From Escherichia coli (lineage in GTDB: Bacteria; Pseudomonadota; Gammaproteobacteria; Enterobacterales; Enterobacteriaceae), in the NCBI RefSeq assembly GCF_050920415.1, contig NZ_CP169309.1: 64,000 bases of DNA. One strand, written 5' to 3'. Below the pieces are notes generated by a model that was given only the letters and a program-made list of their open reading frames with translations, made no database searches and had not been told where the DNA came from. This document shows positions 16,988-32,912 of the stretch, piece by piece; positions within the stretch are counted from its first letter, which is position 1, and each line of letters begins with the position of its first letter. A program made the position numbers and the translations under genes.

Positions 16988-19259
16988 GGAAAACTCCCCA
17001 GTGTTGCAGTGATGCCAGTGCCTGCTGTTCGAGCTGTTGATGATGTGCAATGGCTTGCGGTGGGCAATGCAACGGCATTTGCAGCGCCGAAACGGGAAGC
17101 TGAGCGAGCTGGTAATGCTCAAGCACCTGATGCGCCAGCGTCCCGCGTTCTCGTGGCGGTAGCCAGGCCATCGCCGCGCGCAAATCGGGCAGGGCGTTAA
17201 TAAAATCGGCGTCACTCAGTTGATTCAAATGGCTGCTGAAACCGGCGATAAATGCAGGCTGACTGGCCAGTTGATGGCGGGCTAATGCCAGCAAACCGTG
17301 CAGCGCCTCGCCAGATTGTGCCGGGGATAATTGTGCCAGCATCGTCAGCGCCGCTTCGGCACTGGCGTTGGGATGTTCCAGACGCATCAGCGCGCCAAGG
17401 GCCGCACCGCGATCCAGCGCTGGGGCATGAATCGCCTGACTGCGACGTTCCAGTAAGGCTACCGCCGCAGAAAGCGAAACGCCGGGTAAATTAACGCCGC
17501 TATTTAGATCGCGCAGGATATGGCAAAGCGCCTGCCAGCTATGCAGGTGAGCGTGAAACTCCTTCTCATCCGGCCTGCCGTTGGATTCACATAGCCACAG
17601 TGTGCGATCGATAGCCGCGTATAACGTCGTCTGTAATATCTGCGCGCCTTGCATACCGCTGATTTCATCGAGCTGCCACAAGGCGTAAAGCACTTCCAGC
17701 GCCTGGCCCATTTCGGCAAACTGATTTTCCTGGGCGATTAATAATGTGAGTTGTTCCAGTAATTGCTGACTGAAGGACGCCAGACCCGCTAACGCTGCCT
17801 GGCTAAGACATGTGGTGATGCCGCTGATTCCACCCGCGTCCAGCATATCGGCTTCTAATTTATTGCGTGCGGCCTCCTGGAGGGTGGCACCAAAGCAGGC
17901 GGCTTCAATCAATGCCGCATGTTGGCTAAGTGGCTGGGTTAATGTCCAGCGTTCTTCACCGTTGCCCGCCAGCGTCAGTGTACTTCCGTGCTGGCGCACA
18001 ATGCCGGGAATCTCCAGTATTGCCAACCGATGTAGCACCTGACTTTGCGCCAGTCCATCGGGGGGAAAGCGATTTAAGGTAAGCTCCGCCGGAAGAGAGA
18101 TTCCGGTACGTTCCAGTTCGCAGGTGACATCTTTTGGCAGAGGTGGCTGTGGCGTCGAGGGGGCAAGTTTACCGAATCCGTCACCTGCTAATGTGTCTAT
18201 CAACGTTACCAGTATCGGATCGGTATCGGGATGAATAACGCCGCGATAGCTCCACGGCAACGGCGCGTTCAGGGCTTCTTTGATCAGCGAGCCTGCTATA
18301 GCATCCAGCCAGTCAGTGCGTAACGGTAGTGTATGACCGCGCAACTGTGCCAGTGCCATCGCATGCAGATGAGCGGCAGCCATATCCGCTGTTGAAGCAG
18401 GCAAGTGGTGCTGGCGCAAACGGGTAAGAACCGTTTTTAGTAGTTGTTCACCTGCCTGCTGCAAGCCCCACCGCCAGCACCAGTTTTGCCAGACCGGGGC
18501 AGGCATTCCTGAAAGGTATCCTGCCAGCACATCAAGGCGCTTTTCACTGTATGGCGTGAGATAGCAACCTGTAACGGCATCTGCCAGCGAAGGCAATTCT
18601 GGCTTGTTCATTTCTTGCAAACATTCGCGCCACATTTTTGCCAGTGCCGGAGCGTGCCAGCCACCACAGACGACTAACACGCCGCCATTGTTTTGCTGCA
18701 TCGCCCATGCAATCCAGTGGGCCATAAAGGCTTCGCGCTGACGATTGAGCGCATCGCCGGGGTAGTCGCCCCGCAGTTGGGCAAAATAGTGCGCCAGTGC
18801 ATAGGGTAATATAGTTTGCTGGCTTTCATCTTCGAACAGGTGATCCCACAGGGTGTCGCTGTTATCCATACGAGTGGCACGCAGCAACAAAGCCTGGCTT
18901 TCCTCTTGCGTACCGGGTGACTCGTCCTCTTCTTCACTCTGCGCCCAGCAAGGCAAATCAATAAAGTAAGTTTGTGCCTGAATATGACGTGCGGTTTGTA
19001 GCGCCTGCCACTCCGGCGAAAATTCAGCAAATGGCGTCCAGGCGCCACGTCCGGGGGCAGCACCGTCCTGATACTGGCAATAACTGTAAATCGCCACCGG
19101 AAGCTGGTGGGCTAAAAACAGTTCGTCTATCCGGTCATTAAAATCCGCCGGGCCTTCAATCAACACGTATCGCGGCCGCTGGTTTTCGATTAACGATTTC
19201 ACCAGTCGGGCGCAGGCCGGGCTATGATGCCGGATGCCGACAATTAACGGCTCGCTCAT
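16980..19259 (-). CDS. yehM: large uncharacterized protein (YehM family)
   Basis: ORF 16980..19400; start at ATG 19259 (MSEPLIVGIRHH...), 759 aa; 10 nt downstream of the yehL stop. Confidence 0.8.
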   Translation of the reverse strand: MSEPLIVGIRHHSPACARLVKSLIENQRPRYVLIEGPADFNDRIDELFLAHQLPVAIYSYCQYQDGAAPGRGAWTPFAEFSPEWQALQTARHIQAQTYFIDLPCWAQSEEEDESPGTQEESQALLLRATRMDNSDTLWDHLFEDESQQTILPYALAHYFAQLRGDYPGDALNRQREAFMAHWIAWAMQQNNGGVLVVCGGWHAPALAKMWRECLQEMNKPELPSLADAVTGCYLTPYSEKRLDVLAGYLSGMPAPVWQNWCWRWGLQQAGEQLLKTVLTRLRQHHLPASTADMAAAHLHAMALAQLRGHTLPLRTDWLDAIAGSLIKEALNAPLPWSYRGVIHPDTDPILVTLIDTLAGDGFGKLAPSTPQPPLPKDVTCELERTGISLPAELTLNRFPPDGLAQSQVLHRLAILEIPGIVRQHGSTLTLAGNGEERWTLTQPLSQHAALIEAACFGATLQEAARNKLEADMLDAGGISGITTCLSQAALAGLASFSQQLLEQLTLLIAQENQFAEMGQALEVLYALWQLDEISGMQGAQILQTTLYAAIDRTLWLCESNGRPDEKEFHAHLHSWQALCHILRDLNSGVNLPGVSLSAAVALLERRSQAIHAPALDRGAALGALMRLEHPNASAEAALTMLAQLSPAQSGEALHGLLALARHQLASQPAFIAGFSSHLNQLSDADFINALPDLRAAMAWLPPRERGTLAHQVLEHYQLAQLPVSALQMPLHCPPQAIAHHQQLEQQALASLQHWGVFHV

Positions 19260-19269: not shown

Positions 19270-20358
19270 TCACGGCAGGCGGTGGCGAGCTTGATAATAA
19301 GCCTGCCAGTGAGCTTCTTTATGTGTAGCGACACGTTGTTCGAAGTAACGGCGCAGACGTGCGCGATCTTCTTCGTTATCTTTGACGATGGTTCCGGCAA
19401 TACAGTCCACCAGGTCGGCTGGCTCCCCCGCGCGATTCGCTAAAAACCAGGCGCGGACGCCCACAGCGTGGGCCACGTTCACGGCTTCAGCGGTGGACAT
19501 AATCGCTGTCAGTGTATCCATTGACGTTTTCTTTTCGCCGTTGGCACGCAGATCGCGGAAGGTGCGTACCAGTAACTCAAGTACCGCGTCAGGCACTTTA
19601 TGCGGAATACCGCTATGGGCCAACAAACGCGCCGAAGCACTGGCGACCAGTTCCAGCTCCTGAGCAAAATCCATAATCGGAAAGACAGTTTCAAAGTCGA
19701 ATCGGCGTTTTAGTGCCGCGCTCATTTCATTAACGCCGCGATCGCGGGTATTGGCGGTGGCAATAATATTAAAGCCTTCCCGCGCATAGAGCTGACTGGC
19801 TTCACCAGTGAGTTCCGGCACCGTCATAACCCTGTCAGAAAGCATACCTAACAGACAGTCTTGTACTTCCAGTGGTGTACGCGTTATCTCTTCAAAACGG
19901 ACAATTTTGCCGTCGCGCATTCCTTGGTAGAGCGGGGCAGGGACCAGCGCTTCCGTTGACGGACCATGATTAATAAGCAGGGCGTAGTTCCAGCCGTACT
20001 TGATTTGATCTTCGGTGGTAGATGCGCCGCCCTGGATAGTTAACCCAGCATCGCCGCTAATAGCGGTTGCCAGTAATTCAGACAGGAGAGATTTTGCGGT
20101 GCCAGGTTCCCCCACCAACATCAAACCGCGCCCGGTAGCAAGAGTGACTAACATGCGTTCGACAGCGGAGGGACTAATCACGACTTTACGGCTGATATTT
20201 TGCGCGCTATCGCCAAGAATAAAAGAACGGGCCGCAGGCAAACTTAACTGCCAACCGGGCGGGCAAGGTGCGTTATCATTTTGCTTTAATTTTGCCAGTT
20301 CATCGGCGTATAACACAGCGGCAGGCGGACGCTGCAGATGATTATTCTGCGGTGACAT
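19270..20358 (-). CDS. yehL: MoxR-like AAA+ ATPase
   Basis: 362 aa; Walker A GEPGTAKS; first gene of the yehLMPQ operon. Confidence 0.85.
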   Translation of the reverse strand: MSPQNNHLQRPPAAVLYADELAKLKQNDNAPCPPGWQLSLPAARSFILGDSAQNISRKVVISPSAVERMLVTLATGRGLMLVGEPGTAKSLLSELLATAISGDAGLTIQGGASTTEDQIKYGWNYALLINHGPSTEALVPAPLYQGMRDGKIVRFEEITRTPLEVQDCLLGMLSDRVMTVPELTGEASQLYAREGFNIIATANTRDRGVNEMSAALKRRFDFETVFPIMDFAQELELVASASARLLAHSGIPHKVPDAVLELLVRTFRDLRANGEKKTSMDTLTAIMSTAEAVNVAHAVGVRAWFLANRAGEPADLVDCIAGTIVKDNEEDRARLRRYFEQRVATHKEAHWQAYYQARHRLP

Positions 20359-20464
20359 ATATTCATCCCTGAAATGTATTAATCAAATAAACGATATTTT
20401 ACGCGCAATAAATGTTTGGCGCATTAGTTGTTTGAGCGGAAAATATCTGGAAAGCAATCACAGT

Positions 20465-20551: not shown

Positions 20552-20557
20552 GAACGA

Positions 20558-20608: not shown

Positions 20609-20789
20609 CCTGACTGTTGGGACGTTGCGCCGGATCGAACCCATTTCAAGTCCTGGCTACCGGACGGGTGGTGCCGCAGGTAGTGCCCTGATCCGGAGTG
20701 CAACATCGTGGTCCAACATACGTAAACCAGTATCGACAGGCAGTGTAAGGGTAAGATGCTGGTGTTGCGCTCCTTAATAAGGAGAGCGG

Positions 20790-20879
20790 ATGGACACGCT
20801 GACACAAAAGTTAACCGTGCTCATTGCCGTACTGGAGTTATTAGTGGCTCTGTTACGGCTGATTGATTTGTTGAAGTAA
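20790..20879 (+). CDS. zorO: type I toxin, 29-aa hydrophobic peptide (ZorO-like)
   Basis: ATG 20790 preceded by GGAGAG SD; translation MDTLTQKLTVLIAVLELLVALLRLIDLLK; stop TAA 20877-20879; missed by the ORF track because shorter than 60 aa; matches my recollection of ZorO from E. coli O157:H7. Confidence 0.7.
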   Translation: MDTLTQKLTVLIAVLELLVALLRLIDLLK

Positions 20880-21138
20880 CGGGCAAATTGAAACGCATCT
20901 AAGGGGGAATACCGTCTCCCTCTTTAATAAAGCTATACTCGTCATAATTCAAGTTGCATGTGCTGCGACTGCGTGTTATTCGGCCCATCCATGGACCTCA
21001 CCCCTTACGGGGCCGCTGCAAGTAGCGTTCAAATCCGCTCCATGCGGATTTGTCGTTCACCCCAGTCACTTACTTTAGTAAGCTCCTGGGGATTCACTCG
21101 CTTATCGCCTTCCTGCAACTTGAATTATTTAGAGTATA

Positions 21139-21456
21139 TTATTCTATTTCTTGGTTGAATATATTCTGTAGTTCACGATTAAAAATAGCGATTACAGTTT
21201 CAGGTGATTCACCTCGTAATTTTCGCTCATCAATAAATTCATCTCTTATATAAATCAACGCATCATTTATTAGCGGGTCGGCATCATCTCTATCACGTTG
21301 ATGAAATGTTGGACGTAGCCGGAATCGTTCCTGTCGATAGACGGAACCTGTAAATAATTCAGAGCATTTATGGATCTCAAGTCTGAAGGAAAACGGATCT
21401 TCAGGTACAGGGACTTCATAATCATAAGTAGCGACCAGCTCTTTTTGCACGATCAT
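21139..21456 (-). CDS. yehK: small uncharacterized protein, 105 aa
   Basis: ORF 21139..21456, 60 nt downstream of yehI on the same strand; size and position match K-12 yehK. Confidence 0.7.
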   Translation of the reverse strand: MIVQKELVATYDYEVPVPEDPFSFRLEIHKCSELFTGSVYRQERFRLRPTFHQRDRDDADPLINDALIYIRDEFIDERKLRGESPETVIAIFNRELQNIFNQEIE

Positions 21457-21516
21457 CGCTTTTCCCGGTGGTAAGTCGTGTTGATAACGGGCAGTCGCAT
21501 CACTGCCCGCTGTGTT

Positions 21517-24500
21517 TTAATGGAAAATGACGTCAGGTGCGCTTAACGCTTCACTCAAATCAAACGTATCGAGTTCGGCAAAAGTGACAGATTTATTGTC
21601 ACGGTACACTCGAAGAGAACGGAAGCTCATTAGCGCTTTGCTATCAGCACTGTAGTGGTTAAAACCGGGTGAAAACTTAAGGACCAGCCGATACTCGCCC
21701 AGGTCATAGACACATGCGTCCTCAAAACCTGACTCCCAGCCTTTGTATCGCATTCCCATAAGTTGCCCAACGGTTGCGGATTTACCTTCCCAGCGAGTCA
21801 GGCTGTTACTGGCTGACTCGTCAGGTGTGAGCAGCACTGTGCGCCGCATCAACTGGCGAAAAGGCTGCATAATTTCGTAATCGGCAAAAACCTGTGCAAA
21901 TTCACTGCGCATTTCTGCTGTCATTTCTAACGGGTGGGCAATGCCAATCAGAGCATCCGCAGGCAGGTCAATTGGCTCATCTTGTGCGTTGCAGAACTCC
22001 CCCTCAGCGGCCACACGAAAGGCGTTGAGTAAACGACGCGGTTCATTTGCCGGATAAACCGCCCATATTAATCGCTGAGTAACCAGGCGAGTAAAGGGAT
22101 GATTAACAAACAGAGAATGAAAATCTGCCAGCGACCAGCGTCGGGTGGTGCGTAGGGCAGTTTCAAGACGCGGGAGCAGGTTTTTGCTCACCTGAGTGGC
22201 ATCTTTTTTTAGCCCTTTTAGTCGGGCCAGTGCCTCGGGCGCTTTCAGTTGATCGTCATCGGCGCGCAACCGGGGAACACTTTTCTGGCGAACGTTTTGC
22301 TGATCAAAGATAACCGGGTTGAGGTTTTCATCGAAGCGAACGGTAAACTGCCGGGGACCAAAATCAAATATCAACGCCTGCGGATCATCCAGGCCCAGTG
22401 TTGGGACTAATCTGTCCGCTAACTCTTCCTGGCTTAGTCCACGATTTTCTGCGACCACCTGAAGAAATTCCGCCGCGTTATCACGTAAGGGACGGGATTT
22501 CGCCCGTTGCGATATATGATGCAGCTGTATCAGTGCCATATCATTATTCATCTGAGTAAGTATATTCAGACCACTGACAGCACGGGCAGATTTGCCCTCT
22601 TGAGGCCAGGCAAGGATCTGTGTCGTCAGATTCCGAGCCGTGCTTTCGTCACCAAAGAGACTTAACGCCAAAAAAGCCCAGTTGTCTTTTGCGGGGGCGC
22701 CAGCCTGTTGCCAGGCGGTGAAGAGATCCCAGGCAAAAGCGGCCAGCGTTTGTGGCTGGCAGAACGTTTTCAGTTGTTCCAGCCCGCAATAAAAACGTCC
22801 GCCCTGGGTAAAGCGCAGCATTTCGCCAATAATTTCCAGAGCGTCATCAGTAACAGGTTGATTATTCGTGATAAGTCTCGGCCTGGACCACATTGCCGGA
22901 TGCCAGAAATCAGGGGCTTTGGGAATGCGTGCCGGGTAAATCTCTATTGGACTCTGTTTAAGTAATTGCTCCAGGGCAGGCCATACATCTGTACGCTGCC
23001 AACGATTGGCTACAGTTTGTAGCAATTCGCCATGTCCTTGTTCATACAGTAAACGCAGAGCATTGAGTGCCGCTTCGCTGTTATCGCCAGACCTGGCAAA
23101 GATTAATGGGATCAGCGCCGTAGCCGTATGCTCCGGCCATTGTAAAATCCACTGGCGAGCCAGATTACGCTGGCCCGCAAAACGATGCCAGACGCGGGCA
23201 ACGGGCAGCGCCAGTTCTGTTGCGCCAAAATGAATCAGCAGCGGAAATATCTCTTTGGGATGTCGGGCAAAGGCGGTGATTAATCCGGGCAAAGCATCGG
23301 TACCCAGCACACTTAACAGATATTCCACCCCGGTGTAATGAAAATCAGCCGCGACAATTTGTTGCCAGCACGATACTGCCATTTCGCGCGGCATTTGCGC
23401 GATAAGGTACAGATTCCACACTCCCCAACGCTTTTCATCAGTGTAATTAAATTTGCGTTGGAAAGTTCGCCACCCCTCCATCAACGCAACGCTATCTTGT
23501 GCCAGTAATGCGCTGGCGGCCTCTTCCCGGTAGTGTTTATTTTCAGTCTGTTTTGCCTGATAATTGAGCAATCTTCCTAATGAAGTATGTGTCTCTAGTT
23601 GATCGGTATCCAGAGCATCCAACTGTCCTGTGAGAATAAACTCATTAAACTTCCACCTGTGATCTTCAAAACCTAATTCCCGCAAGAAGGTATCGGTTCC
23701 TCTGCTAGCGAGACGTTCGTCAAAAGGCATGGCGCTAAAATGGCTGATTGTAGTTTGTTGTTCCTGCGTCCAGTGTTCCTGGGACGACCTGTACGCTTGC
23801 GGTACAAGCGTAAGTTCAGGTAGCGAAAAGTGAGTTATGGAAGTCTTTTTTCTGCCACGCCACGGTGGCGAAACGAGGATTTCAGGCAGACTGCTGTTAT
23901 CGGTGCTATCAATAACCGGTTTTGGCGAAGCCGATAAATAACTATTCACCACTGCCCGGGCTTGAGTACTTAACCACGGCATCACCTCTTCTGCCAGTTG
24001 TGGCTGCGATGCCATCAGCGTTTGTAACAGCGTATGCCAGTATTCATCACGTGCTTTTTGCTGTGCAGGCAGCTTTTTGTCTTCGATGATAGGATAACCA
24101 GGGCGCGCAGGGGGTTCTTTTAACGCCAGTAGTTCTGCCAGTGCGGCGAGCGTCGCATGGGGAAAGTTTTTACTGTATTTAGCCACACGTTGCAGGCTGG
24201 GTTTGTTTTTATCGGCAACTAACAGCAAGATGCGAATAACTTGCGGATGGTTAATTTGTACCAGCAGGCTACCGCAATCTTCTTTATGGGCATACATCGC
24301 GAGGCGTGGAACGGCTGCAATTCCCTGTTCGCGCAAAAGGGCGGCGCAGGCCGCGTAGCCGAAGTGGTTTTCATGCGACATGTAGCTGGCTTCGCGATCG
24401 CTAAATATATCCTGGCTCCAGTAGCGTTCGAGTTTTCTCACCGCTCTGGGGTCATTAGCAACAACTTTTAACCACTCCTTAGAATGAAAATGAGTCCGCG

Positions 24501-25167
24501 GGCATTCAAGGCCTACCAACTCATTGGCGATTTCTGGTTTCTCCGGGAGGATGAGTGCAATAAAAGGACGGCGAACTTTGGGTATTCCTGGCAGTGCGGC
24601 AATGAGTTTGTCGGCGCAACGCTGCCAGCAGCTTTCCTCTGCCAGAGAGAGATGCTTACGCAGTCGGAGATCGAATTCGTTATAGGTTTCTGAGCGATAA
24701 CCATAGCCATAACCATCGTCCTCGTTCTGATACTGCAATGTTACTACCAGAGGATCACTCTCATAACACCGTACAATAAACTGGCGTGCAATCACCACTT
24801 CAGTCGCATATTCCAGTCCCTCTTGTTGGACGATTTCATCGAGCAACTGTTGGCTATCATTTTGCGCGATACAGGCTAGCGCCGCCATTGTCCGGGCCGG
24901 AATTGAGGGGTTGTGCTCGCCTATCAAGTTGATGGCTTGCGTAATGGCCGACTGCCACTCCAGTGAAAAATTTTCATAACGCCAGACGATGTTTTTTTTC
25001 TTCTCAGCAATGTGTAGCAATTTATCACCCAGTGTCTGGATGAGGCTTTCAGTGATAACAGGCACCGGTTCGCCCGGCCAATTGCGATGGCTGAGTGGTG
25101 TTTTGCCTTTTTTATATTTCAGTTCCAGTTGGGCGTTATCCGCTAGCCACGGTAATTCCTTGTCCAT
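21517..25167 (-). CDS. yehI: large MolR/YehI-family protein (DUF4132-type), without the N-terminal WGR domain
   Basis: 1216-aa ORF; central and C-terminal regions share blocks with the two upstream paralogs (e.g. DFGPRQFTVxFDExL, HPLxxxLTxRLIW); starts 9 nt after the upstream paralog stop. Confidence 0.85.
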   Translation of the reverse strand: MDKELPWLADNAQLELKYKKGKTPLSHRNWPGEPVPVITESLIQTLGDKLLHIAEKKKNIVWRYENFSLEWQSAITQAINLIGEHNPSIPARTMAALACIAQNDSQQLLDEIVQQEGLEYATEVVIARQFIVRCYESDPLVVTLQYQNEDDGYGYGYRSETYNEFDLRLRKHLSLAEESCWQRCADKLIAALPGIPKVRRPFIALILPEKPEIANELVGLECPRTHFHSKEWLKVVANDPRAVRKLERYWSQDIFSDREASYMSHENHFGYAACAALLREQGIAAVPRLAMYAHKEDCGSLLVQINHPQVIRILLLVADKNKPSLQRVAKYSKNFPHATLAALAELLALKEPPARPGYPIIEDKKLPAQQKARDEYWHTLLQTLMASQPQLAEEVMPWLSTQARAVVNSYLSASPKPVIDSTDNSSLPEILVSPPWRGRKKTSITHFSLPELTLVPQAYRSSQEHWTQEQQTTISHFSAMPFDERLASRGTDTFLRELGFEDHRWKFNEFILTGQLDALDTDQLETHTSLGRLLNYQAKQTENKHYREEAASALLAQDSVALMEGWRTFQRKFNYTDEKRWGVWNLYLIAQMPREMAVSCWQQIVAADFHYTGVEYLLSVLGTDALPGLITAFARHPKEIFPLLIHFGATELALPVARVWHRFAGQRNLARQWILQWPEHTATALIPLIFARSGDNSEAALNALRLLYEQGHGELLQTVANRWQRTDVWPALEQLLKQSPIEIYPARIPKAPDFWHPAMWSRPRLITNNQPVTDDALEIIGEMLRFTQGGRFYCGLEQLKTFCQPQTLAAFAWDLFTAWQQAGAPAKDNWAFLALSLFGDESTARNLTTQILAWPQEGKSARAVSGLNILTQMNNDMALIQLHHISQRAKSRPLRDNAAEFLQVVAENRGLSQEELADRLVPTLGLDDPQALIFDFGPRQFTVRFDENLNPVIFDQQNVRQKSVPRLRADDDQLKAPEALARLKGLKKDATQVSKNLLPRLETALRTTRRWSLADFHSLFVNHPFTRLVTQRLIWAVYPANEPRRLLNAFRVAAEGEFCNAQDEPIDLPADALIGIAHPLEMTAEMRSEFAQVFADYEIMQPFRQLMRRTVLLTPDESASNSLTRWEGKSATVGQLMGMRYKGWESGFEDACVYDLGEYRLVLKFSPGFNHYSADSKALMSFRSLRVYRDNKSVTFAELDTFDLSEALSAPDVIFH

Positions 25168-25176
25168 GCTCTTTCC

Positions 25177-28100
25177 TTATTCAAACAGGGCTTCAATATC
25201 GTTAATCAACTCGCTGGCGGTGATGTCATCGAGTGCGGAGAACTGCGCTTCCTGTGTTGAATGACTCCCCCAGCCATAGCTTTCTGCTTTGCCTTCCCAT
25301 AGCCACAGCTTGCTTAAGAGTTGCTCGGCACTGAGTTCGGCTGGCGACATACCAACTGCAAATCCTTCATCGATTTCCATGATTAATGACCAGCGGCCCA
25401 GAGGTTTGATCATCCAGCCGATCCAGCCACCGTCCTGCGGTTCACCACGCATCCAGCCTTTATTCGCCAGCCCCATTACCCGACCGCTCGGGCATTTTCT
25501 GCCTGCCCAGCGGGTCAATTCGCTGGCATTGCGCTCGGTTTCTGTCAGGGCATAACTGTTGCGGTCGAGCTGGCGGAACGGCGGTAACAGCTCGTAGTCG
25601 GCAAAAAGCTGACCAAAGGCGGCGGCATCCGTCGGTGATATTTCCAGAACGTGAGGAATACCAATAGAGATATCGCCTTCCGGCAGGGTGAAAAGATCAT
25701 CGTCAGCGGTGCTGTAGCTGTTATCTTCCGCCACACGGAAGCACGCCAGTAACTGGTTGTCTGCGCTATAAATGCCCCAAATCAGACGGCGGGTTAAGTG
25801 GCAGACCAGCGGATGCTCAACCAGAAAGAGCTGAAAGTTTTCCGGCGACCAGCGGCGGCGCAGGCACATGGCGGATTCCAGCCTTGCCACCTGCTGGGCG
25901 GCAACGGTACGCGCATCTTTTTTCAGCAGTTTGTAGCGGTTAACTGCATCGTTCGCTTGGGTTTCATCATCGCTTTTGTTCGGTTTAGGCAAGTCTTTCA
26001 GGCGGCTGCCGGAAACATCGCGCACAAACGGTTTTAAGGTTTCATCAAAGCTGACGGTGAACTGCCGTGGGCCAAAATCCAGCAGCAGCGAACCGTTATC
26101 ATCCAGACCGAGATCCGGTGCTAACCGGTCTTCAAGCTCCGCCACCGTGAGTTCGCGGCTCTCGGCAATGTCGGCAATTTTTTCTTTTGCCCGCTCCTGT
26201 AATGCTTTGAATTTCAGTTTCTGGGCGATGCCGTTAAGCTGCATCAGGGCGATATCACTACCGATAGCAGCGAGGATATCCAGCCCGACGGTGGCGCGTT
26301 TATGCTGGGATTCACCAGGCCAGGCGCGGATTAATGGCGTCAGTTTGCGGGCGGTGTCATCGTTGCCAAGAACACCTAATGCAGTGAACGCCCAGCTCTC
26401 TTTCGACGGCGCGCCAGCGGTCTCCCAGGCGGTAAACAGATCCCAGGCAAACTCAGCCAGTGAGTCGGCAGTACAGGCGTCTTTCACCTGTAATAACCCC
26501 GGATACAGCGTATCTTCCTGAGGGAAGCGAAGCATTTCACCGAGGTGGAAGAGGGCGCTATCTGGCAGTGATTGGGCGTTTGCTTTTAATACCGGGCGCG
26601 TCCAGAGCGATGGCTGATAAAAGGCCGGAAGAGTGGGGATTTTTGTCGGGTGATTATCTAAGGGATCGAGCGCTAGCAGAGCGTTCACCGCGTCTGTTAC
26701 TTCCGGCTGGTTATAACGCCGGGCGATTTCTTGCAATAATGGCTGATGACCGTTTTCTGTAAGCATACGCAAGGCAGCGCGGGCGTTGTCCTGCGCTTCA
26801 CCGGCTTTGCCGAGCGCCGCGGGCAGCAGGCCGGTAATGGCGTGTTCCGGGTATTTCAGCAGCCAGCTACGGGCGTCTTGTCGTAGGGTTTTGAGTTTGT
26901 TGAAGGCGCGGGCGACGGCAGGAGCCAGCTCACTCGCTGCGAAGTAATTCGTTATGGGCAAGGCTTCCTGTGGATAGCGTGCAAGTGAGTTTACTAACCC
27001 AGGTAATCCTTTGAGTCCAAAATGTAACATGGCGTATTCGGTATCGGTATGCGGAGATACAGTAAGGGCATTCCATGCTCTTATTGCTTTCTCCAGCGGC
27101 AATGTTGTCAAAATCCCCAAATGCCAATAATGCCCGGTAGGTGAATGAAACACCTTAAATTCACTTATTAAGGTTGCATAATCTTCATTTAGCCATGCCT
27201 CAACTACCGCTTCGGGAGCTTTAATATATGTACCAGCGATCCGTCGTTGAAAACCCATCCTTGCCAACAGATTGGCAGTACTTTCTTCATGACTAACCGT
27301 GATGTGTTTTGAATACCAGATATATTTCGCCAAAAGTTGATTACTGATTTCTTCTGTCAGATAACTGATTGGCTCAATGCCTAATGGTGCTAAATCAAGC
27401 ACCGGAATCGACGATTTTTTCTTTTTCGAAAGCCATGGTGGGGAGACTACTATGGCCGGCAGTAGATCGGTGCTGGCATGGTTTGAGGGCTGTGTCAGTT
27501 GTTGCTGGCATGATTTCAGCACTGCAGCTGCGGGTGTCGAAAGCCAGGGAATGACCTGTTCTGCCAGTGCTGGTTGCGAGATAAGCATCGTCATTAGCAT
27601 AATGCGCCAACTATTCTCTTCTTTTTGCACTAGAAGTTCCGCCAGTGCTGCCAGTGCTGCGTGTGGGAACGCAGCGCAGGCTTTCGTCATTCGATCGTGA
27701 CAGCGTTTAGTATGCCCGGCTACACGTATAAGCAGTGTTAATGCGAACGGATGATTGATATGACGCAACACATCGGCGCAGTAGTCACTTGCGGCATAGG
27801 GAGCAAATCGGGGCAGGGCTGCAACACCTTGCTCCTGTAATACGGTGGCTGACCATATCGCACCACAATAGTAATCATCAAAAATGGCATATGGCTCGTG
27901 ATATTTTTCTAATGAGGCAAGAATGTGCTCATCAGTCGCCACTATTTTTAGCCACTCAAGCGAGGGTAATTTTTTTTTCCCCAGTAGACGCTGGGCAATT
28001 TCATGTGCAATTTCTGGTTTTTCGGGTAATAACATAGCAATTAATGGTTGCCGCCATTCTGGAATATGTGGAATTGCGGCAATAAGTTTTTGTGCACATT

Positions 28101-28971
28101 TTTGCCAGAGAGACTCTTCCGCCAGTGATAAATGTTTCCGTAGGCGTAATTCAAAACTGGAATATTGCTGCAAGTTATCAGGTGCAATGCCAGACGGCAG
28201 AATAATAATGATATTATTCGCATAATTCCATTCAATATCAATCTGTTGAAGGTGTATTATTACATCAGTAGCATATTCCAGACCGCCTTCCTGAATGATC
28301 TGATCCATAACATCCTCACGCACTTTATATCTTGTGCATTTCATTTCAAGTGCCGTGAGTACAGCCATTACTGGTGATGGTAACTGTGTTGTTTTCAGGC
28401 AGTCGATCTGACTGATCGCCTGGGCGACGGTGTTTTGCCATACTAAAGAACAGGCGCTGAAGTCAAATGTGGCTGTTTTATTATCCCGTTGCGACACGCT
28501 ACAGGCTAAGCGACGTAACTGGGTCAAGTTGTCTGCTTGCTGAACAGGAACTCCGGGAAAGCGGCGATGGCTTAACGTGGTGTGTACAACTTCGGGCGGA
28601 AAAACGACAGCAATATCTTTCGCCAGCCACGGTAAAACATCATCTGTATTTTTGTCAGCCACACGGGCTTCTGCTACGCAAAAGGGTTGTTCCTGAATAA
28701 TGGTGGATAAGGCCGCTACCTTGAGAGAATCCGTTACCGTTTGGGAAGGTTGCAAAGAATTATCCTTCGCTTGCTCCACATACCCCTTCTTCACCTTCTC
28801 CGCAATCAGCCTCAGTTCCGCTTTTTCCGCCGCCGCAGCATCAGCAAAGCTTTTTACCTGGCTTTGCCCGTTGGTACTGACTTTGCCCCAACTAATATGC
28901 AGCTCGTTTCCCTGTTGCTCCACTGCCCAGAATTTATGTGATTTTTCGTCCTGATAAATATAGGTTTTCAT
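25177..28971 (-). CDS. molR: MolR-family protein with N-terminal WGR-like domain (intact; recalled as a pseudogene in K-12)
   Basis: 1264-aa ORF; N-terminus MKTYIYQDEKSHKFWAVEQQGNELHISWGKV; 12 nt downstream of the upstream paralog. Confidence 0.8.
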   Translation of the reverse strand: MKTYIYQDEKSHKFWAVEQQGNELHISWGKVSTNGQSQVKSFADAAAAEKAELRLIAEKVKKGYVEQAKDNSLQPSQTVTDSLKVAALSTIIQEQPFCVAEARVADKNTDDVLPWLAKDIAVVFPPEVVHTTLSHRRFPGVPVQQADNLTQLRRLACSVSQRDNKTATFDFSACSLVWQNTVAQAISQIDCLKTTQLPSPVMAVLTALEMKCTRYKVREDVMDQIIQEGGLEYATDVIIHLQQIDIEWNYANNIIIILPSGIAPDNLQQYSSFELRLRKHLSLAEESLWQKCAQKLIAAIPHIPEWRQPLIAMLLPEKPEIAHEIAQRLLGKKKLPSLEWLKIVATDEHILASLEKYHEPYAIFDDYYCGAIWSATVLQEQGVAALPRFAPYAASDYCADVLRHINHPFALTLLIRVAGHTKRCHDRMTKACAAFPHAALAALAELLVQKEENSWRIMLMTMLISQPALAEQVIPWLSTPAAAVLKSCQQQLTQPSNHASTDLLPAIVVSPPWLSKKKKSSIPVLDLAPLGIEPISYLTEEISNQLLAKYIWYSKHITVSHEESTANLLARMGFQRRIAGTYIKAPEAVVEAWLNEDYATLISEFKVFHSPTGHYWHLGILTTLPLEKAIRAWNALTVSPHTDTEYAMLHFGLKGLPGLVNSLARYPQEALPITNYFAASELAPAVARAFNKLKTLRQDARSWLLKYPEHAITGLLPAALGKAGEAQDNARAALRMLTENGHQPLLQEIARRYNQPEVTDAVNALLALDPLDNHPTKIPTLPAFYQPSLWTRPVLKANAQSLPDSALFHLGEMLRFPQEDTLYPGLLQVKDACTADSLAEFAWDLFTAWETAGAPSKESWAFTALGVLGNDDTARKLTPLIRAWPGESQHKRATVGLDILAAIGSDIALMQLNGIAQKLKFKALQERAKEKIADIAESRELTVAELEDRLAPDLGLDDNGSLLLDFGPRQFTVSFDETLKPFVRDVSGSRLKDLPKPNKSDDETQANDAVNRYKLLKKDARTVAAQQVARLESAMCLRRRWSPENFQLFLVEHPLVCHLTRRLIWGIYSADNQLLACFRVAEDNSYSTADDDLFTLPEGDISIGIPHVLEISPTDAAAFGQLFADYELLPPFRQLDRNSYALTETERNASELTRWAGRKCPSGRVMGLANKGWMRGEPQDGGWIGWMIKPLGRWSLIMEIDEGFAVGMSPAELSAEQLLSKLWLWEGKAESYGWGSHSTQEAQFSALDDITASELINDIEALFE

Positions 28972-28983: not shown

Positions 28984-31900
28984 TTAATCAAACAATGATT
29001 CAATGTCGTTAATCAGCTCGCTGGCGGTGATGTCGTCGAGCATGGAAAAAGTAAGTAAAGGTTGTTTACCGTAGCGATCATCTGGCGAGGTGATTTTTAC
29101 GCTTTCAACAGGTAACAGGTCGCCATAACCTGTTTCACCATAAATTAATGAAAAATGTTCTGTTTCAAGTTCGAGATCGCCATAAGGGGTAGATTTGCGC
29201 ATCGCATAGACGCTGCCGCTTTCTTCCAGACGTTGCCAGCCTCGGCGCTCTAGCCCGACAATACGTCCGGCCTGACAGAGCTGTCCTTGCCAGCGTGTCA
29301 GGTCGTGGGTATTCCGTTCATTATCAGCAAGACGATAACTACCACGATCGAGCTGTTGGAAGGGGGGAAGCAGTTCGTAATCAGCGTAAATTTGCCTGAA
29401 TGCAGCGGCAGATTCAGGGGGGATCTCCAGCACATGCGGTATACCGATGTTTCCTGCTGGCAGCGTGAATAACTCATCCTGCGCATCGCTGTAAGTGCTG
29501 TCTTCTGCGACCCGGAAGCAGGCAATCAGCGTGTTTTCCTCAGTATATACTCCCCATAACAGCCGTCGGGTTAAGTGACGTACCAGCGGATGCTCCACCA
29601 GAAACAGGCGGAACTGTTCTGCCGTCCAGCGTCTGCGCTGGCACATAGCCTGCTCCAGACGATCAATCTGCTGACTGGCAATGGCGCGCACATCTTTCTT
29701 CAATTGTTTGAAGAGGTTAACGGCGTCAGTTGCCAGTGTTTTATCATCGCTCTGATTTGGTTTGGGTAAATCTTTCAGGACTTTGCCGTTTGCATCGCGC
29801 ACTACAGGTTTTAAGGTTTCGTCAAAAACAACGGTGAATTGACGTGGGCCGAAATCCAGTATCAGCGAGCCACTGCTATCAAGCCCTAAATCTGGAGCCA
29901 GGCGGTCTTCCAGTTCAGCCATAGTCAGCCCACGGTTTTCAGCAACTATGTTGATTTTCTCGCGGGCATGTTCCTGTAATGCAACGAATTTAATCTTTTT
30001 CGCAATGCCATTAAGCAGCATTAGCGCAACATCGCTGCCAATATCAGCTAATACATCCAACCCGGACACCGCCCGTTTATGCTGTGATTCCCCAGGCCAG
30101 GCACGGATAAGCGGGGTTAATTTACGCGCGGTGTCGTCATTGCCTAAAATCCCCAGCGAAGTAAATGCCCAGTTTTCTTTTGCGGGTGCGCCAGCTTCTG
30201 TCCAGGCGGTATACAGATCCCAGCCAAAGTCAGCCAGTGATTCGCGAGTGAAGGTTTCTTTGATGATCTCCAGCCCAGCGTAGGCGGTAATGTCGCGAGG
30301 AAAGCTCAGCATAGTGCCCAGGTGGCGCATAGCGTCATCTGGTAGAGGCAGGTTGTTACTTTTAAGCCGTGGTCTGCGCCATAAGGTGAACTGATAAAAG
30401 CCGGGCAGTGGGGCGATTTTTGCGGGATATTCTTCCAGAGGATCGCTATCAAATAATGTTGCCAGCGCAGCTAAAACATCAGGTTGATTATATCCTTGCG
30501 CGATTTTCTCAATCGTTTCTCGCTGGTTTAATTTCACTAGCAGTCGGAGCGCCTGGCGGGCATATTCCCGATTTTGGCACGGTTTGCCCAGCGCCAAAGG
30601 CAGTAGCCCGGCGGCGGCATGGCGCGGGTTATTTGCCAGCCAATTAACGGCATCCTTGTAAGCCATTTTTTTCTGTAACCGCTGCGCCATTGGTAAGGCT
30701 AGTTCACTGGCCCCAATAAAGAGGGTGAATATCCACAGTCGTTGATGATCTCGTTGCAAGCAGGTCATAAACGCAGGAATGGCCGTACTACCAAAAACTG
30801 CCAGAATCTCTTTCTCACCTGAATATCGCTCCTCAATGATTATTTGGTTGAGAAATGAAATCGCCTGTTGTCCCGGTAAGTAACAAAGCGCAGATAAATT
30901 CCAGCTTTTGTTGGCATTGTTGTGATATTTCGCAAACTCAGCTTTTAGTGCTGGAAAATCAAAGCGCAACAAGGCATCAACAGCGCTTTGCGGTATGTGT
31001 TTTTTTTCATGTAAGTCATCTTCGCAATGCAGCCATTCATTAAAACCTAATTGCCAAAGGATTTGTTGTTCTGGTGTAAAAGGAATGAAAGATGTCTCCC
31101 AGCTTTCTTTTTCAATTAGTGGTAGGTCGGTAAATAAGGTTTGCTGTGATGCCTGATATTTCGCGATTTCACTGAATCTGGATATGTCAGTGTGACTGAT
31201 TAACTCTGTAATTCCAGGTGTGATGTCAGTGACGGAAGGGATGGGAAGTACCGGTAAATCAAATACGGGTATTACATTCTTTTTCTTATTTATTGCCCAC
31301 GGTGGAGCGACAAGCAGCTCTGGCAACATATCCGCAGTGGCATACTCATATTCTTCAGCTACTGACTGAGGACGACATTCAGATAAGATGCCTGCCGCTT
31401 TAGCATTAACCCAGGGAATGACGTCGCGTACTAATTCTGGCGTGACGGTAATCAGTTTGACAAGCGCTTTACGCCACTCTTTGTCTTCATGTATTGCCAG
31501 CAAAGTAGCATAAGCGGCAATAGCCGCAGCGGGATGTTTTTGGCAGGCTTTGCTTAAGTATTCCAGGTGCTTTTTCTTGCCATTTACACCGAGGATCAGA
31601 ATTTGAATCGCATCCGGGTGATTCGTTTTCCATAGCCATTTGACAAGATCTTCAGTCTCGCTGATGCGCTCGAAGAGATAAGTGGGATTGTCAGAATGCT
31701 CTTCCACAAACTCAGTAAGTATCCGGCTTACACCGCGCCCCCCATTATTTGCCAGCAACATTGCCAGATAAGCGCGAAAATCACGATACAACGGTGGGAA
31801 GTCGTATTTTTCTGCTGTAGTCAGAGCTATATCATCGGTTACTACCAGTCTTAACCAGGTTATCGCCGGAACGTTTTGGTCTGCATAATGTAGCGCCATA

Positions 31901-32877: not shown

Positions 32878-32912
32878 TTCATAAAGAAAAGGCGCTGTCG
32901 ATGCAGCGCCTT
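32878..32912 (-). terminator. metG rho-independent terminator
   Basis: Stem aaggcgctg / cagcgcctt with 7-nt loop; U-rich tract in the minus-strand RNA immediately 3' of the stem. Confidence 0.6.

What the first reader, a model, noticed from the sequence alone, without database searches (positions are those of the whole stretch)
21517..25167. Third paralog (yehI) lacks the N-terminal WGR-like module present on the two upstream copies
YehI begins at MDKELPWLADNAQLE, which aligns to roughly residue 95-110 of the other two paralogs (KRPWLADDAAIPL / DDVLPWLAKDIAVV). The array therefore mixes WGR-fused and WGR-less versions of the same scaffold. If the WGR-like module is a nucleic-acid or poly-ADP-ribose-binding sensor, the WGR-less copy may act as a partner or decoy.
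Basis: seen in the sequence. Interest (0 to 1): 0.45.

Follow-up and report, generated by a model that had tools for sequence, protein, structure and literature searches.

The report
YehI: a paralog without WGR head
The E. coli gene yehI really is a version of its two upstream neighbours that lost a small, flexibly tethered WGR domain, a difference already visible in public annotation; it is kept by selection, but what the whole gene system does is unknown.

Summary
Three tandem minus-strand genes sit between metG and yehK: A (28984-32781), B, the intact counterpart of the K-12 molR pseudogene (25177-28971), and yehI (21517-25167). They are colinear paralogs. A and B open with a Pfam WGR domain; yehI has none and starts four residues before the shared PWLA motif. 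No hidden upstream exon exists.

An AlphaFold model of B places a folded WGR at residues 1-66, a disordered linker at 70-109, and then the alpha-solenoid. YehI therefore lacks exactly head plus tether.

The loss is derived and old. The single WGR-bearing gene of Intestinirhabdus alba is sister to all WGR-less YehI orthologs of Escherichia, Klebsiella and Serratia (bootstrap 100). A second, independent loss occurred in the first Klebsiella oxytoca copy.

YehI is under purifying selection (dN/dS about 0.15) and its DNA is present in 98% of 5,426 complete E. coli genomes.

In most of the 71 loci retrieved, which span several bacterial phyla, one WGR-DUF4132 gene precedes yehL-M-P-Q. WGR-less copies are concentrated in multi-copy arrays.

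The domain difference is already in RefSeq and Pfam annotation. The "partner or decoy" idea is compatible with the data but untested. Function remains unknown.

The parts
21517..25167 (-). yehI: 1216-aa alpha-solenoid plus DUF4132 protein without a WGR domain. It is the copy nearest yehK/yehL.
   Evidence: ORF. Pfam finds DUF4132 only. RefSeq WP_000356814.1 'DUF4132 domain-containing protein'. dN/dS is 0.13-0.15 against other E. coli alleles.
23248..23880 (-). Hypervariable central cassette of yehI (about residues 430-640). It follows the invariant PPW motif.
   Evidence: Identity to the K-12 allele is 20-36% here against 92-100% in the flanks. The segment 23261-23845 does not align to K-12 by blastn. 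dN=0.63 with saturated dS.
25177..28971 (-). Paralog B, the intact counterpart of the K-12 molR pseudogene: 1264 aa, WGR + linker + solenoid + DUF4132.
   Evidence: Aligns to the K-12 pseudogene at 93.9% nucleotide identity. AlphaFold model: pLDDT 88.3.
28774..28971 (-). WGR-coding segment of B (residues 1-66).
   Evidence: Pfam WGR E=1.8e-15. The model shows four strands plus a helix, pLDDT 88-96. Foldseek match to 2ra8 at rmsd 1.1 A.
28645..28764 (-). Disordered linker of B (residues 70-109), between the WGR and the PWLA start of the scaffold. YehI lacks this segment together with the WGR.
   Evidence: pLDDT 31-42 for residues 70-109. Linker length and sequence vary among paralogs.
28984..32781 (-). 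Paralog A: 1265 aa, WGR + solenoid + DUF4132. An accessory copy, absent from K-12.
   Evidence: Its 3' half is found in 1,634 of 5,426 E. coli genomes. K-12 lacks 28989-32584.
32575..32781 (-). WGR-coding segment of A (residues 1-69).
   Evidence: Pfam WGR E=3e-18. 90% amino-acid identity to B's WGR while the adjacent scaffold is 15-25% identical.
32889..32912 (-). Terminator-like hairpin after metG. It marks the upstream limit of the A-B-yehI unit.
   Evidence: 9-bp stem followed by a T-run. Intergenic gaps A-B and B-yehI are only 12 and 9 nt.
21139..21456 (-). yehK: 105-aa protein found here only in the Escherichia loci examined.
   Evidence: RefSeq annotation. jackhmmer hits only in the window and in L001/L002, which are E. 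coli loci, among 83 sources.
19270..20358 (-). yehL: MoxR-class AAA+ ATPase (Pfam AAA_5). First gene of the conserved yehL-M-P-Q module.
   Evidence: Pfam AAA_5 on the Klebsiella and Intestinirhabdus orthologs.
16980..19259 (-). yehM: DUF5682 protein.
15851..16987 (-). yehP: VWA (CoxE-like) protein.
13863..15854 (-). yehQ: SWIM zinc-finger family protein.
   Evidence: RefSeq name. The Pfam SWIM hit on the Klebsiella ortholog is only 'faint'.

Best explanation
What it is (shown): yehI is a functional, selectively maintained, 'headless' member of the MolR/YehI family. Members are about 1,200-aa alpha-solenoids ending in a DUF4132 alpha/beta region. The ancestral and canonical form carries an N-terminal WGR domain on a roughly 40-residue disordered tether and sits directly upstream of a conserved four-gene module: yehL (MoxR-type AAA+), yehM (DUF5682), yehP (VWA) and yehQ (SWIM). 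The YehI lineage descends from such a WGR-bearing gene. It lost exactly the WGR plus tether through a 5' deletion that created a new start a few codons before the PWLAD motif. This loss predates the divergence of the YehI sequences now found in Escherichia, Klebsiella and Serratia.

How it most likely works (inferred): the conserved C-terminal third couples every paralog to the single-copy YehLMPQ machine. The divergent N-terminal and central solenoid, including the hypervariable cassette, gives each paralog its own specificity. The WGR is a tethered accessory ligand-binding head, probably for nucleic acid by homology to PARP WGR domains. It is needed at least once per system but is not needed for scaffold folding or for coupling. 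YehI would therefore be an alternative adaptor or subunit that engages the same AAA+/VWA machinery without WGR-mediated input. It could act beside the WGR-bearing paralogs or in a mixed assembly with them.
For: Shown:
- WGR is present in A and B and absent in YehI, and the rest of the three proteins is colinear.
- The domain boundary is exact. In the model of B, the WGR spans residues 1-66, the disordered linker spans 70-109 (pLDDT 31-42), and the scaffold starts at about residue 110. YehI starts four residues before PWLA.
- The loss is derived. The WGR+ gene of Intestinirhabdus alba (metG, one gene, then yehLMPQ) is sister to the WGR-less YehI clade. Bootstrap is 100 in the N-scaffold, C-half and combined trees. 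It also shares the YehI-specific signature PPWLADDAQL.L..KKGK.PLSHRRWPGEPVP.
- The WGR-less start is conserved in 17 orthologs from three genera.
- YehI is under purifying selection. dN/dS is 0.13-0.15 between E. coli alleles and 0.17 against Klebsiella.
- Its 3' half is present in 5,327 of 5,426 E. coli genomes.
- The canonical locus (one WGR-DUF4132 gene followed by L-M-P-Q) recurs in beta-, gamma- and deltaproteobacteria, actinobacteria and myxobacteria.
- Only the DUF4132 gene is multiplied. L, M, P and Q stay single-copy.
- WGR loss is recurrent at the same boundary. It occurs in the first Klebsiella oxytoca copy, which nests in the WGR+ A clade (bootstrap 92-100). It also occurs in Massilia, Comamonadaceae and Mycolicibacterium copies that start 12-30 residues before PWL, and as an internal WGR deletion in Massilia L064.
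- WGR-less copies are enriched in multi-copy arrays (p=4.6e-4).

Supporting the inference:
- Between A and B, the C-terminal third is 67-83% identical while the N-terminal scaffold is 15-40% identical.
- The WGR is 90% identical between A and B. K13, F14, W15, G29, G35, K59, K62, G63 and Y64 are nearly invariant family-wide.
Against: - No experiment or complex prediction links any paralog physically to YehLMPQ. The coupling rests on synteny alone.
- In E. coli, yehI is separated from yehL by yehK and a zorO-orzO toxin-antitoxin insert (about 1.1 kb), so co-expression with yehLMPQ is not assured.
- The system has no recognisable enzymatic effector. It has no hit in PADLOC or NCBIfam beyond generic AAA+/VWA, and no hit in the PDB by sequence outside the WGR. 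The biological output is therefore unknown.
- 'WGR needed at least once' is contradicted by genomes where YehI is the only intact copy seen. B is a pseudogene in 5 of 17 sampled E. coli genomes (copy A was not checked in the five). A WGR-less gene is the sole copy next to LMPQ in L055.
- The enrichment test is not phylogenetically corrected, and each locus shows only +/-10 kb.
- The WGR ligand was not tested.
Confidence: 0.5

Rival explanations
1. Decoy or dominant-negative regulator. YehI competes with the WGR-bearing paralogs for the YehLMPQ machine, or for their ligand, and so sets a threshold for the system without itself signalling.
For: - YehI has the same scaffold and a conserved C-terminal third, so it plausibly shares binding partners.
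- WGR-less copies occur mostly where WGR+ copies are also present.
- The WGR-less copy lies closest to yehL in Enterobacteriaceae and again, independently, in Comamonadaceae arrays (L068, L069).
Against: - YehI stays intact in genomes where B has decayed (5 of 17).
- A decoy would be expected to mimic its target, yet YehI's N-terminal half and cassette are highly diverged from A and B (14-48% identity).
- Its C-terminal tail has diverged from the LDDITASELINDIE.LF motif that A and B share.
- There are no binding data.
Confidence: 0.15
2. Obligate hetero-oligomer partner. YehI and a WGR-bearing paralog form a mixed complex in which one tethered WGR head serves both subunits.
For: - DNA of both B and yehI is present in about 98% of E. 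coli genomes.
- The genes are 9 nt apart with an RBS in the spacer, which suggests translational coupling and matched expression.
- Mixed arrays arose independently in three lineages.
Against: - One partner is frequently pseudogenised while the other stays intact. B is disrupted in 5 of 17 sampled genomes and yehI in 2 of 17. No sampled genome has both disrupted.
- Most taxa run the system with a single gene (35 single-copy WGR+ loci).
- A lone YehI-like gene exists in a Serratia fonticola assembly and a lone WGR-less gene next to LMPQ in Mycolicibacterium.
Confidence: 0.15
3. Neutral degeneration under redundancy. Once several paralogs existed, losing the WGR from one copy was tolerated and has no functional meaning. 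The headless copy is simply a weaker duplicate.
For: - The loss is recurrent and is associated with multi-copy arrays.
- Members of the array are often pseudogenised and copy number varies (A is in 30% of genomes; Klebsiella has 3-5 copies).
- YehI's dN/dS (0.13-0.15) is much higher than that of neighbouring housekeeping and partner genes (metG 0.02, yehL 0.03).
Against: - The WGR-less form has been kept full-length across the sequence divergence among its Escherichia, Klebsiella and Serratia orthologs, with a conserved start and dN/dS well below 1.
- It is the more often intact of the two core copies in the sample (15 of 17 against 12 of 17).
- Each independent loss removes the same unit, head plus tether, and leaves the scaffold whole.
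Confidence: 0.15
4. Annotation or sequence artefact. The WGR of yehI is present but hidden by a wrong start, a frameshift, or programmed read-through from B.
For: B's stop codon is in frame with yehI and only three codons upstream.
Against: - Read-through would fuse the whole of B to YehI. It would not restore a WGR next to the YehI scaffold.
- The sequence upstream of yehI is the 3' end of B, with no room for 90 codons.
- The in-frame arrangement is not conserved in Klebsiella, where the spacer is 14 nt.
- The same start is found in 17 orthologs and in independent assemblies.
Confidence: 0.01

Closest known systems
E. coli K-12 YehI (b2118) and the molR pseudogene (MolR, 'molybdate metabolism regulator'), RefSeq 'DUF4132 domain-containing protein YehI' / 'WGR and DUF4132 domain-containing protein'
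   Same: This is the same locus. The window's yehI is 84% identical in protein to the main K-12-type cluster. B aligns to the K-12 molR pseudogene at 93.9% nucleotide identity. The WGR-less versus WGR-bearing difference is already encoded in the RefSeq product names and Pfam assignments.
   Different: - This strain has an intact B and an extra copy A that K-12 lacks.
- Its yehI carries a different central cassette (20-36% identity over residues about 430-640).
- No functional study of either protein was found in the searchable literature. The 'molybdate regulator' name is historical; that statement rests on my own knowledge, not on a test here.
WGR domains of PARP1/2/3 (DNA-break sensing and allosteric relay)
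   Same: The N-terminal module of A and B is a bona fide WGR. It matches Pfam PF05406, the family profile hits the PARP3 WGR domain 2eoc at E=1e-4, and it keeps the W-G-[R/K] motif (SWGKVG).
   Different: - No PARP catalytic, zinc-finger or BRCT domains are present.
- The WGR sits at the extreme N-terminus on a disordered tether to an alpha-solenoid, not packed between regulatory and catalytic domains.
- Nucleic-acid binding was not tested.
Bacteroides fragilis Q64V53 (PDB 2ra8), a structural-genomics protein with an N-terminal WGR
   Same: It is the closest solved structure to the WGR of A and B: 48% identity and rmsd 1.1 A over 69 residues.
   Different: Only the WGR matches. The rest of 2ra8 (351 residues) is unrelated to the solenoid and DUF4132 parts, and its function is also unknown.
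MoxR AAA+ / VWA chaperone pairs (CoxD-CoxE, RavA-ViaA, NorQ-NorD, CbbQ-CbbO) and the MoxR-vWA 'ternary' conflict systems of Kaur et al. 2020 (PMC7159879)
   Same: The partner module contains an adjacent MoxR-class AAA+ gene (YehL, Pfam AAA_5) and a CoxE-like VWA gene (YehP). One further large, variable protein class is attached. Kaur et al. propose that such pairs remodel a third component.
   Different: - The third components described there (VMAP, iSTAND, FtsH, beta-propeller) are not the ones here.
- That paper does not mention WGR, SWIM or Yeh genes.
- No effector domain is recognisable, and no PADLOC model matches.
- DUF5682 and SWIM partners are specific to this system.
Eukaryotic HEAT/ARM solenoid adaptors (CAND1, karyopherin-beta family, condensin CAP-G/Ycg1)
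   Same: They share the overall architecture of a long alpha-solenoid. These are the best Foldseek matches for the scaffold.
   Different: TM-scores are about 0.1 and sequence identity 8-13%. This is a generic repeat-fold resemblance, not evidence of homology or shared function.

Membership tests
WGR domain (Pfam PF05406): paralogs A and B | Significant match to the WGR profile HMM | tested here: met
   A residues 8-69, E=3e-18. B residues 7-69, E=1.8e-15.
WGR domain (Pfam PF05406): paralogs A and B | WGR fold (small beta-sheet packed against a helix), similar to solved WGR domains | tested here: met
   The model has strands 2-7, 12-20, 23-30 and 36-41 plus helix 45-61, pLDDT 88-96. Foldseek match to 2ra8 at rmsd 1.1 A over 69 aa. 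The family profile hits the PARP3 WGR domain 2eoc at E=9.9e-5.
WGR domain (Pfam PF05406): paralogs A and B | Binding of nucleic acid (or poly-ADP-ribose) | not testable with these tools
   This rests only on homology to PARP WGR domains.
WGR domain (Pfam PF05406): YehI | Significant match to the WGR profile HMM, or a WGR-like N-terminal module | tested here: not met
   No WGR hit in Pfam or with family-specific WGR HMMs. The protein starts four residues before the scaffold's PWLA motif.
MolR/YehI family (DUF4132, PF13569) | C-terminal DUF4132 domain | tested here: met
   YehI 960-1144, E=6.9e-48. B 988-1173, E=8.2e-51. A 999-1182, E=2.8e-51.
MolR/YehI family (DUF4132, PF13569) | Colinear, roughly 1,100-aa alpha-solenoid scaffold with the invariant PPW motif and conserved C-terminal third | tested here: met
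   Three-way and 60- or 103-sequence alignments. The model is helical from about residue 126 to 950.
MolR/YehI family (DUF4132, PF13569) | Genomic linkage to yehL (AAA_5), yehM (DUF5682), yehP (VWA) and yehQ (SWIM) | tested here: met
   Window and RefSeq annotation, Klebsiella, Intestinirhabdus, and about 47 of the 71 diverse loci retrieved.
MoxR-vWA ternary conflict systems (Kaur et al. 2020) | Adjacent MoxR-class AAA+ and VWA genes | tested here: met
   YehL carries AAA_5. YehP carries VWA_CoxE and VWA_2.
MoxR-vWA ternary conflict systems (Kaur et al. 2020) | A defining third component (VMAP, iSTAND, FtsH or a beta-propeller fused to the VWA) and attached effector domains | tested here: not met
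   Pfam lists for all locus genes show none of these. The paper contains no mention of WGR, SWIM or Yeh genes. No effector domain was recognised.
Known anti-phage defence systems (PADLOC-DB v2) | Match of any locus protein to a defence-system HMM | tested here: not met
   Eight proteins were scanned. The only hit is a sub-threshold WGR_XIII match for A (E=0.0063).
PARP-type DNA-damage sensors | PARP catalytic domain accompanying the WGR | tested here: not met
   Pfam finds only WGR and DUF4132 in A and B.

The most novel reading that the evidence does not exclude
The WGR-solenoid-DUF4132 proteins plus YehL-M-P-Q could form a widespread, uncharacterised surveillance or conflict-type system. In this reading the solenoid paralogs are interchangeable, diversifying sensors or adaptors, and the constant parts are kept uniform. 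A MoxR-VWA machine would remodel the sensors.

Features compatible with this reading:
- variable copy number
- ancient allelic cassettes
- recombinant chimeras between paralogs
- gene conversion that homogenises the WGR head

Headless paralogs such as YehI, which evolved repeatedly and almost only inside arrays, would be a built-in second class of subunit: WGR-independent sensors or threshold-setting competitors. This resembles paired or 'helper' receptor arrangements in other immune gene arrays.
Probability: 0.15. Interest if true: 0.7.

Novelty: already known. Interest (0 to 1): 0.3.

Why it matters
The finding itself changes little. YehI and MolR are catalogued E. coli proteins, and their domain difference can be read from existing annotation.

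The value lies in the context assembled here:
- The headless form is a derived, conserved and selected state, not an annotation error or a relic.
- The same head-plus-tether unit has been shed independently several times, almost always inside paralog arrays.
- The family belongs to a five-gene module found in several phyla, for which no function or structure has been reported in the searchable literature or the structure databases.

This gives a concrete handle for experiments on the WGR domain outside PARPs and on an orphan MoxR-VWA-SWIM system present in nearly every E. coli. Comparing B, YehI, the natural WGR::YehI chimeras and a WGR-grafted YehI would test what the tethered head contributes.

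Tried and rejected
- Hidden WGR through an alternative start, frameshift or read-through. Rejected: the in-frame TAA lies three codons upstream, the upstream DNA is B's 3' end, and the frame relation is not conserved in Klebsiella.
- Recent duplication as the origin. Rejected: the paralogs are 34-47% identical with saturated dS.
- Partial tandem duplication that directly generated the truncated downstream copy. Not favoured: the WGR+ gene of I. alba is sister to YehI, not an outgroup to all enterobacterial paralogs.
- Defence-system assignment. PADLOC gave no hits.
- NCBIfam gave nothing beyond a WGR-only match to a Leptospira family and weak generic AAA+/VWA matches.
- PDB sequence searches with YehI, B, a 103-sequence family profile, YehQ and YehM gave only WGR hits.
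- Literature searches found no functional work. Terms tried were DUF4132, DUF5682, yehI/yehL/yehM/yehP/yehQ/molR, WGR+SWIM+MoxR+vWA, and 'WGR domain'+bacterial+SWIM. DUF4132 appears only as a landmark for a transposon insertion in ST131.
- Context look-ups for other WGR-less representatives. P0147 is not on record, and the P0159 contig ends beside the gene.
- Phage-encoded homologs that might act as decoys: none found. Plasmid hits are few and mostly large replicons or mislabelled chromosomes.
- Unusual divergence of the locus as a sign of import. The roughly 94% nucleotide identity to K-12 extends to metG, apbC and yehL (dS 0.15-0.22). It reflects the strain's lineage in this region and is not specific to yehI; only the cassette is anomalous.

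Full report

The window matches E. coli strain MFDS1022581 at 100% identity.

On the minus strand, three long ORFs follow metG and its terminator-like hairpin (32889-32912):
- A, 28984-32781, 1265 aa
- B, 25177-28971, 1264 aa
- yehI, 21517-25167, 1216 aa

The gaps between them are 12 and 9 nt.

Pfam finds DUF4132 near the C-terminus of all three. It finds a WGR domain only in A (residues 8-69, E=3e-18) and B (7-69, E=1.8e-15), not in YehI.

In the three-way alignment YehI is colinear with A and B from its fourth residue onward. Its ELPWLADN aligns with KRPWLADD of A (PWL at residue 95) and VLPWLAKD of B (PWL at residue 114).

B's TAA stop lies in frame three codons before the yehI ATG, and the 9-nt spacer holds a GGAAAGAG ribosome-binding site. 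No upstream extension is therefore possible.

The N-terminal module is a genuine WGR:
- A 103-sequence family profile hits the solved chain 2ra8 (E=7.7e-25) and the human PARP3 WGR domain 2eoc (E=9.9e-5).
- The modelled domain superposes on 2ra8 at 1.1 A over 69 residues.

**2. Where is the domain boundary?**

An AlphaFold2 model of B residues 1-1200 was built on a 60-sequence alignment (mean pLDDT 88.3, pTM 0.76). It shows four regions:
- a compact WGR (four strands plus helix 45-61, pLDDT 88-96)
- a disordered stretch at residues 70-109 (pLDDT 31-42)
- a long alpha-helical solenoid from about residue 110, with small beta inserts, running to about residue 950
- a mixed alpha/beta DUF4132 region

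YehI therefore lacks exactly the head and its flexible tether and keeps the whole scaffold.

Foldseek matches for the scaffold are generic HEAT/ARM solenoids such as CAND1, karyopherins and condensin CAP-G, with TM about 0.1.

**3. What is the locus?**

This is the E. coli molR/yehI locus. In a K-12 derivative the order is metG, a frameshifted 'DUF4132' pseudogene (molR), yehI, yehK, yehL, yehM.
- B is the counterpart of the K-12 pseudogene (93.9% nucleotide identity).
- Copy A (28989-32584) is absent from K-12.

Among 5,426 complete E. coli genomes:
- the 3' half of yehI is found in 5,327
- the 3' half of B is found in 5,328
- the 3' half of A is found in only 1,634

In a sample of 17 other genomes:
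- B is annotated as a pseudogene in 5
- yehI is annotated as a pseudogene in 2
- both are intact in 10

Downstream lie five genes (Pfam assignments from the orthologs):
- yehK
- yehL (MoxR-class AAA+, AAA_5)
- yehM (DUF5682)
- yehP (VWA, CoxE-like)
- yehQ (SWIM)

**4. Is the absence of WGR ancestral or derived?**

A search of 1.84 billion representative proteins found 8,249 family clusters at E of 0.001 or better. Of 158 sequences examined, 115 carry the N-terminal WGR.

A scan of one genome per species returned 71 loci. I annotated them with HMMs built from the window's proteins. The canonical arrangement is a single WGR-DUF4132 gene immediately upstream of yehL-M-P-Q. It occurs in these groups:
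- Erwinia and Serratia
- Variovorax, Acidovorax, Massilia and Xanthomonadales
- Trichlorobacter and myxobacteria
- Propionibacteriaceae

Burkholderia has the reverse order, L-M-P-Q followed by the DUF4132 gene.

Intestinirhabdus alba has, in the same chromosomal position as E. coli, metG, one WGR-DUF4132 gene (1279 aa), then yehLMPQ.

In neighbour-joining trees of the N-terminal scaffold, the C-terminal half, and both together, this WGR-bearing gene is sister to the WGR-less YehI clade:
- The YehI clade holds the E. coli alleles, E. marmotae, Klebsiella and Serratia sequences.
- Support for the sister grouping is bootstrap 100 in all three trees.
- The YehI clade itself has support of 89-96.

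The I. alba gene shares YehI's specific N-terminal signature (PPWLADDAQLALSLKKGKQPLSHRRWPGEPVP). It is 49% and 63% identical to YehI in the two halves, against 37% and 47% to B.

YehI therefore descends from a WGR-bearing gene and lost its first 90 or so codons. All 17 full-length orthologs examined start M-x(2-6)-PW/LW-LAD. The loss thus predates the divergence of the YehI sequences now found in these three genera.

**5. The loss is recurrent and modular.**

Klebsiella oxytoca carries four or five tandem paralogs.
- The first (1186 aa) starts MTTAQNQNYGMQNAAVGDHRPWLADD and lacks WGR.
- It nests inside the WGR-bearing A clade (bootstrap 92-100).
- This is an independent second loss.

Further WGR-less full-length copies begin 12-30 residues before a PWL motif:
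- several Massilia species
- Mycolicibacterium frederiksbergense
- representatives P0147, P0148, P0159 and P0166

One Massilia copy keeps MRRFELKD...KG but has the WGR core deleted in frame (L064).

Rhizobacter and Polaromonas arrays have a WGR+ copy first and WGR-less copies next to yehL. This is the same polarity as in Enterobacteriaceae (L068, L069).

Among loci that include yehL/M, 35 of 37 single-copy loci are WGR+. In contrast, 6 of 10 multi-copy loci contain at least one WGR-less copy (Fisher p=4.6e-4). Three caveats apply:
- Only +/-10 kb is seen per locus.
- The loci are not phylogenetically independent.
- ORF calls in GC-rich genomes are rough.

**6. Is YehI functional?**

- Outside the central cassette, dN/dS between the window allele and three other E. 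coli alleles is 0.12-0.15. Against Klebsiella it is 0.17 for residues 1-420.
- This is clear purifying selection, although weaker than on metG (0.02) or yehL (0.03).
- The roughly 94% nucleotide identity of this region to K-12 extends to the flanking housekeeping genes (dS 0.15-0.22). It is not special to yehI.

**7. Patterns of variation.**

Between A and B:
- the WGR is 90% identical
- the following 300 or so residues are 15-25% identical
- the C-terminal third is 67-83% identical

WGR sequences group by genome and not by paralog lineage:
- Within-genome dN is 0.04-0.07 for the pairs that show it (EcA-EcB, Ec2A-Ec2B, Ko1b-Ko2). It is 0.14-0.19 between Escherichia and Klebsiella copies.
- WGR dS is 0.23 between Klebsiella copies 1b and 2, while their scaffolds give 1.2-1.8.
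- WGR dS is 1.0 between A and B, while the rest is 2.3 or saturated.
- Klebsiella copy 3 is the exception, at dN 0.16-0.21 to copies 1b and 2.

This indicates gene conversion or concerted evolution of the head.

YehI alleles within Escherichia differ by a cassette at about residues 430-640. It is 20-36% identical between the window allele and the K-12 allele, while the flanks are 92-100% identical.
- The window type is shared with E. fergusonii.
- The K-12 type is shared with E. marmotae.

B alleles show a similar mosaic. The N-scaffold has dN 0.345 and the C-half 0.015 between two E. coli strains.

Rare natural chimeras fuse the N-terminal 290-345 residues of a WGR+ paralog to YehI residues 377 or 454 through 1210 (P0074, P0072).

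**8. Mechanism.**

Shown:
- the architecture
- the derived, modular, recurrent loss
- selection on YehI
- synteny with yehLMPQ
- multiplication of only the solenoid gene

Inferred:
- The conserved C-terminal third couples each paralog to the single-copy AAA+/VWA/SWIM/DUF5682 machine.
- The divergent solenoid and cassette confer paralog-specific recognition.
- The tethered WGR supplies an accessory, probably nucleic-acid-binding, input. That input is required in most genomes at least once but is dispensable for the scaffold.

YehI is then an alternative, WGR-independent adaptor or subunit. I rate this at about 0.5.

Three more specific readings remain open, at about 0.15 each:
- a decoy or threshold-setting competitor
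- an obligate hetero-oligomer partner
- neutral loss under redundancy

The frequent decay of B with yehI intact, and the lone WGR-less gene beside yehLMPQ in Mycolicibacterium, argue against an obligate partnership. Conservation and dN/dS argue against pure neutrality.

**9. Comparison with known systems and novelty.**

The locus proteins match no PADLOC defence model. They match no specific NCBIfam family. Outside the WGR they match no solved structure by sequence.

The MoxR-VWA pair resembles the CoxD-CoxE-type chaperone couples and the 'ternary' conflict systems of Kaur et al. 2020. That paper, however, mentions neither WGR, SWIM nor the Yeh genes, and its defining third components are absent here.

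No functional paper on DUF4132, DUF5682, YehI or YehLMPQ was found.

The specific finding, YehI lacking the WGR that MolR has, is already visible in RefSeq product names and Pfam assignments. It is therefore not new. What this analysis adds is its evolutionary polarity, its recurrence and the system-level context.

Interest is modest (0.3). It would rise if the Yeh system proved to be a sensor array of the conflict type.

Noticed in passing
[not shown]
   Followed up: yes
window 23248-23880 (yehI residues about 430-640): Ancient allelic cassette. It is 20-36% identical between this strain's YehI and the K-12 allele while the flanks are 92-100% identical, and dS is saturated. The window type is shared with E. 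fergusonii and the K-12 type with E. marmotae. This suggests trans-species polymorphism or exchange between Escherichia species.
   Followed up: partly
window 28774-28971 and 32575-32781 (WGR-coding 5' ends of B and A); L009 Klebsiella copies: The WGR heads of paralogs within one genome are more alike than those of orthologs between genera. Within-genome dN is 0.04-0.07 (Klebsiella copy 3 excepted) against 0.14-0.19. WGR dS is 0.23 for Klebsiella copies 1b and 2 while their scaffolds give 1.2-1.8. This points to concerted evolution or gene conversion confined to the head.
   Followed up: partly
window 28984-32781 (copy A): Copy A is accessory. Its 3' half occurs in 1,634 of 5,426 complete E. 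coli genomes and is absent from K-12. RefSeq names it only 'DUF4132 domain-containing protein' although it has a clear WGR.
   Followed up: yes
L009 2657-20991 and L010 6382-20945 (Klebsiella oxytoca): These arrays hold five and four paralogs. The first copy is independently WGR-less. L010 looks like L009 after a deletion by recombination between copies 1 and 1b, because its first gene carries the C-terminus of copy 1b.
   Followed up: partly
proteins P0072 and P0074 (E. coli, single-member clusters): These are natural chimeras. About 290-345 N-terminal residues of a WGR+ paralog are fused to YehI residues 377 or 454 through 1210 at 93-97% identity. They are presumably deletions by recombination between array members, and they amount to ready-made 'WGR-restored YehI' variants.
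   Followed up: partly
window 25177-28971 compared with L088 4106-7867 (B alleles): B is also mosaic between E. coli strains. The N-terminal scaffold has dN 0.345 (dS 2.8) while the C-terminal half has dN 0.015 (dS 0.24).
   Followed up: no
[not shown]
   Followed up: partly
window 21520-21573 compared with 25180-25233 and 28987-29040 (C-terminal tails): A and B, and the WGR+ Klebsiella copies, end in a near-identical acidic tail: LDDITASELINDIE(S/A)LF(D/E). YehI's tail has diverged to LDTFDLSEALSAPDVIFH. This could be a partner-binding motif specific to WGR-bearing copies.
   Followed up: no
L005 9983-13594 (Serratia fonticola assembly): A lone YehI-type WGR-less gene (61% identical) lies next to an Rpn/Transposase_31 gene, with no yehLMPQ within 10 kb. 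It is probably a horizontally acquired orphan.
   Followed up: no
L019, L021, L026, L051 (Burkholderia); L020, L037-L039, L044, L056, L063, L064 (Massilia): Burkholderia has the inverted gene order, yehLMPQ followed by the WGR-DUF4132 gene. Massilia genomes carry many copies, up to 5-7 in tandem and several loci per genome, including WGR-less ones.
   Followed up: no
window 17642-36000 compared with K-12 (L002): The whole region, housekeeping genes included, is only about 94-95% identical in DNA to K-12 (dS: metG 0.15, apbC 0.19, yehL 0.22). Only 21 of 5,434 matching records exceed 95% identity over the 12-kb locus. The strain carries a divergent lineage of this chromosomal segment.
   Followed up: partly
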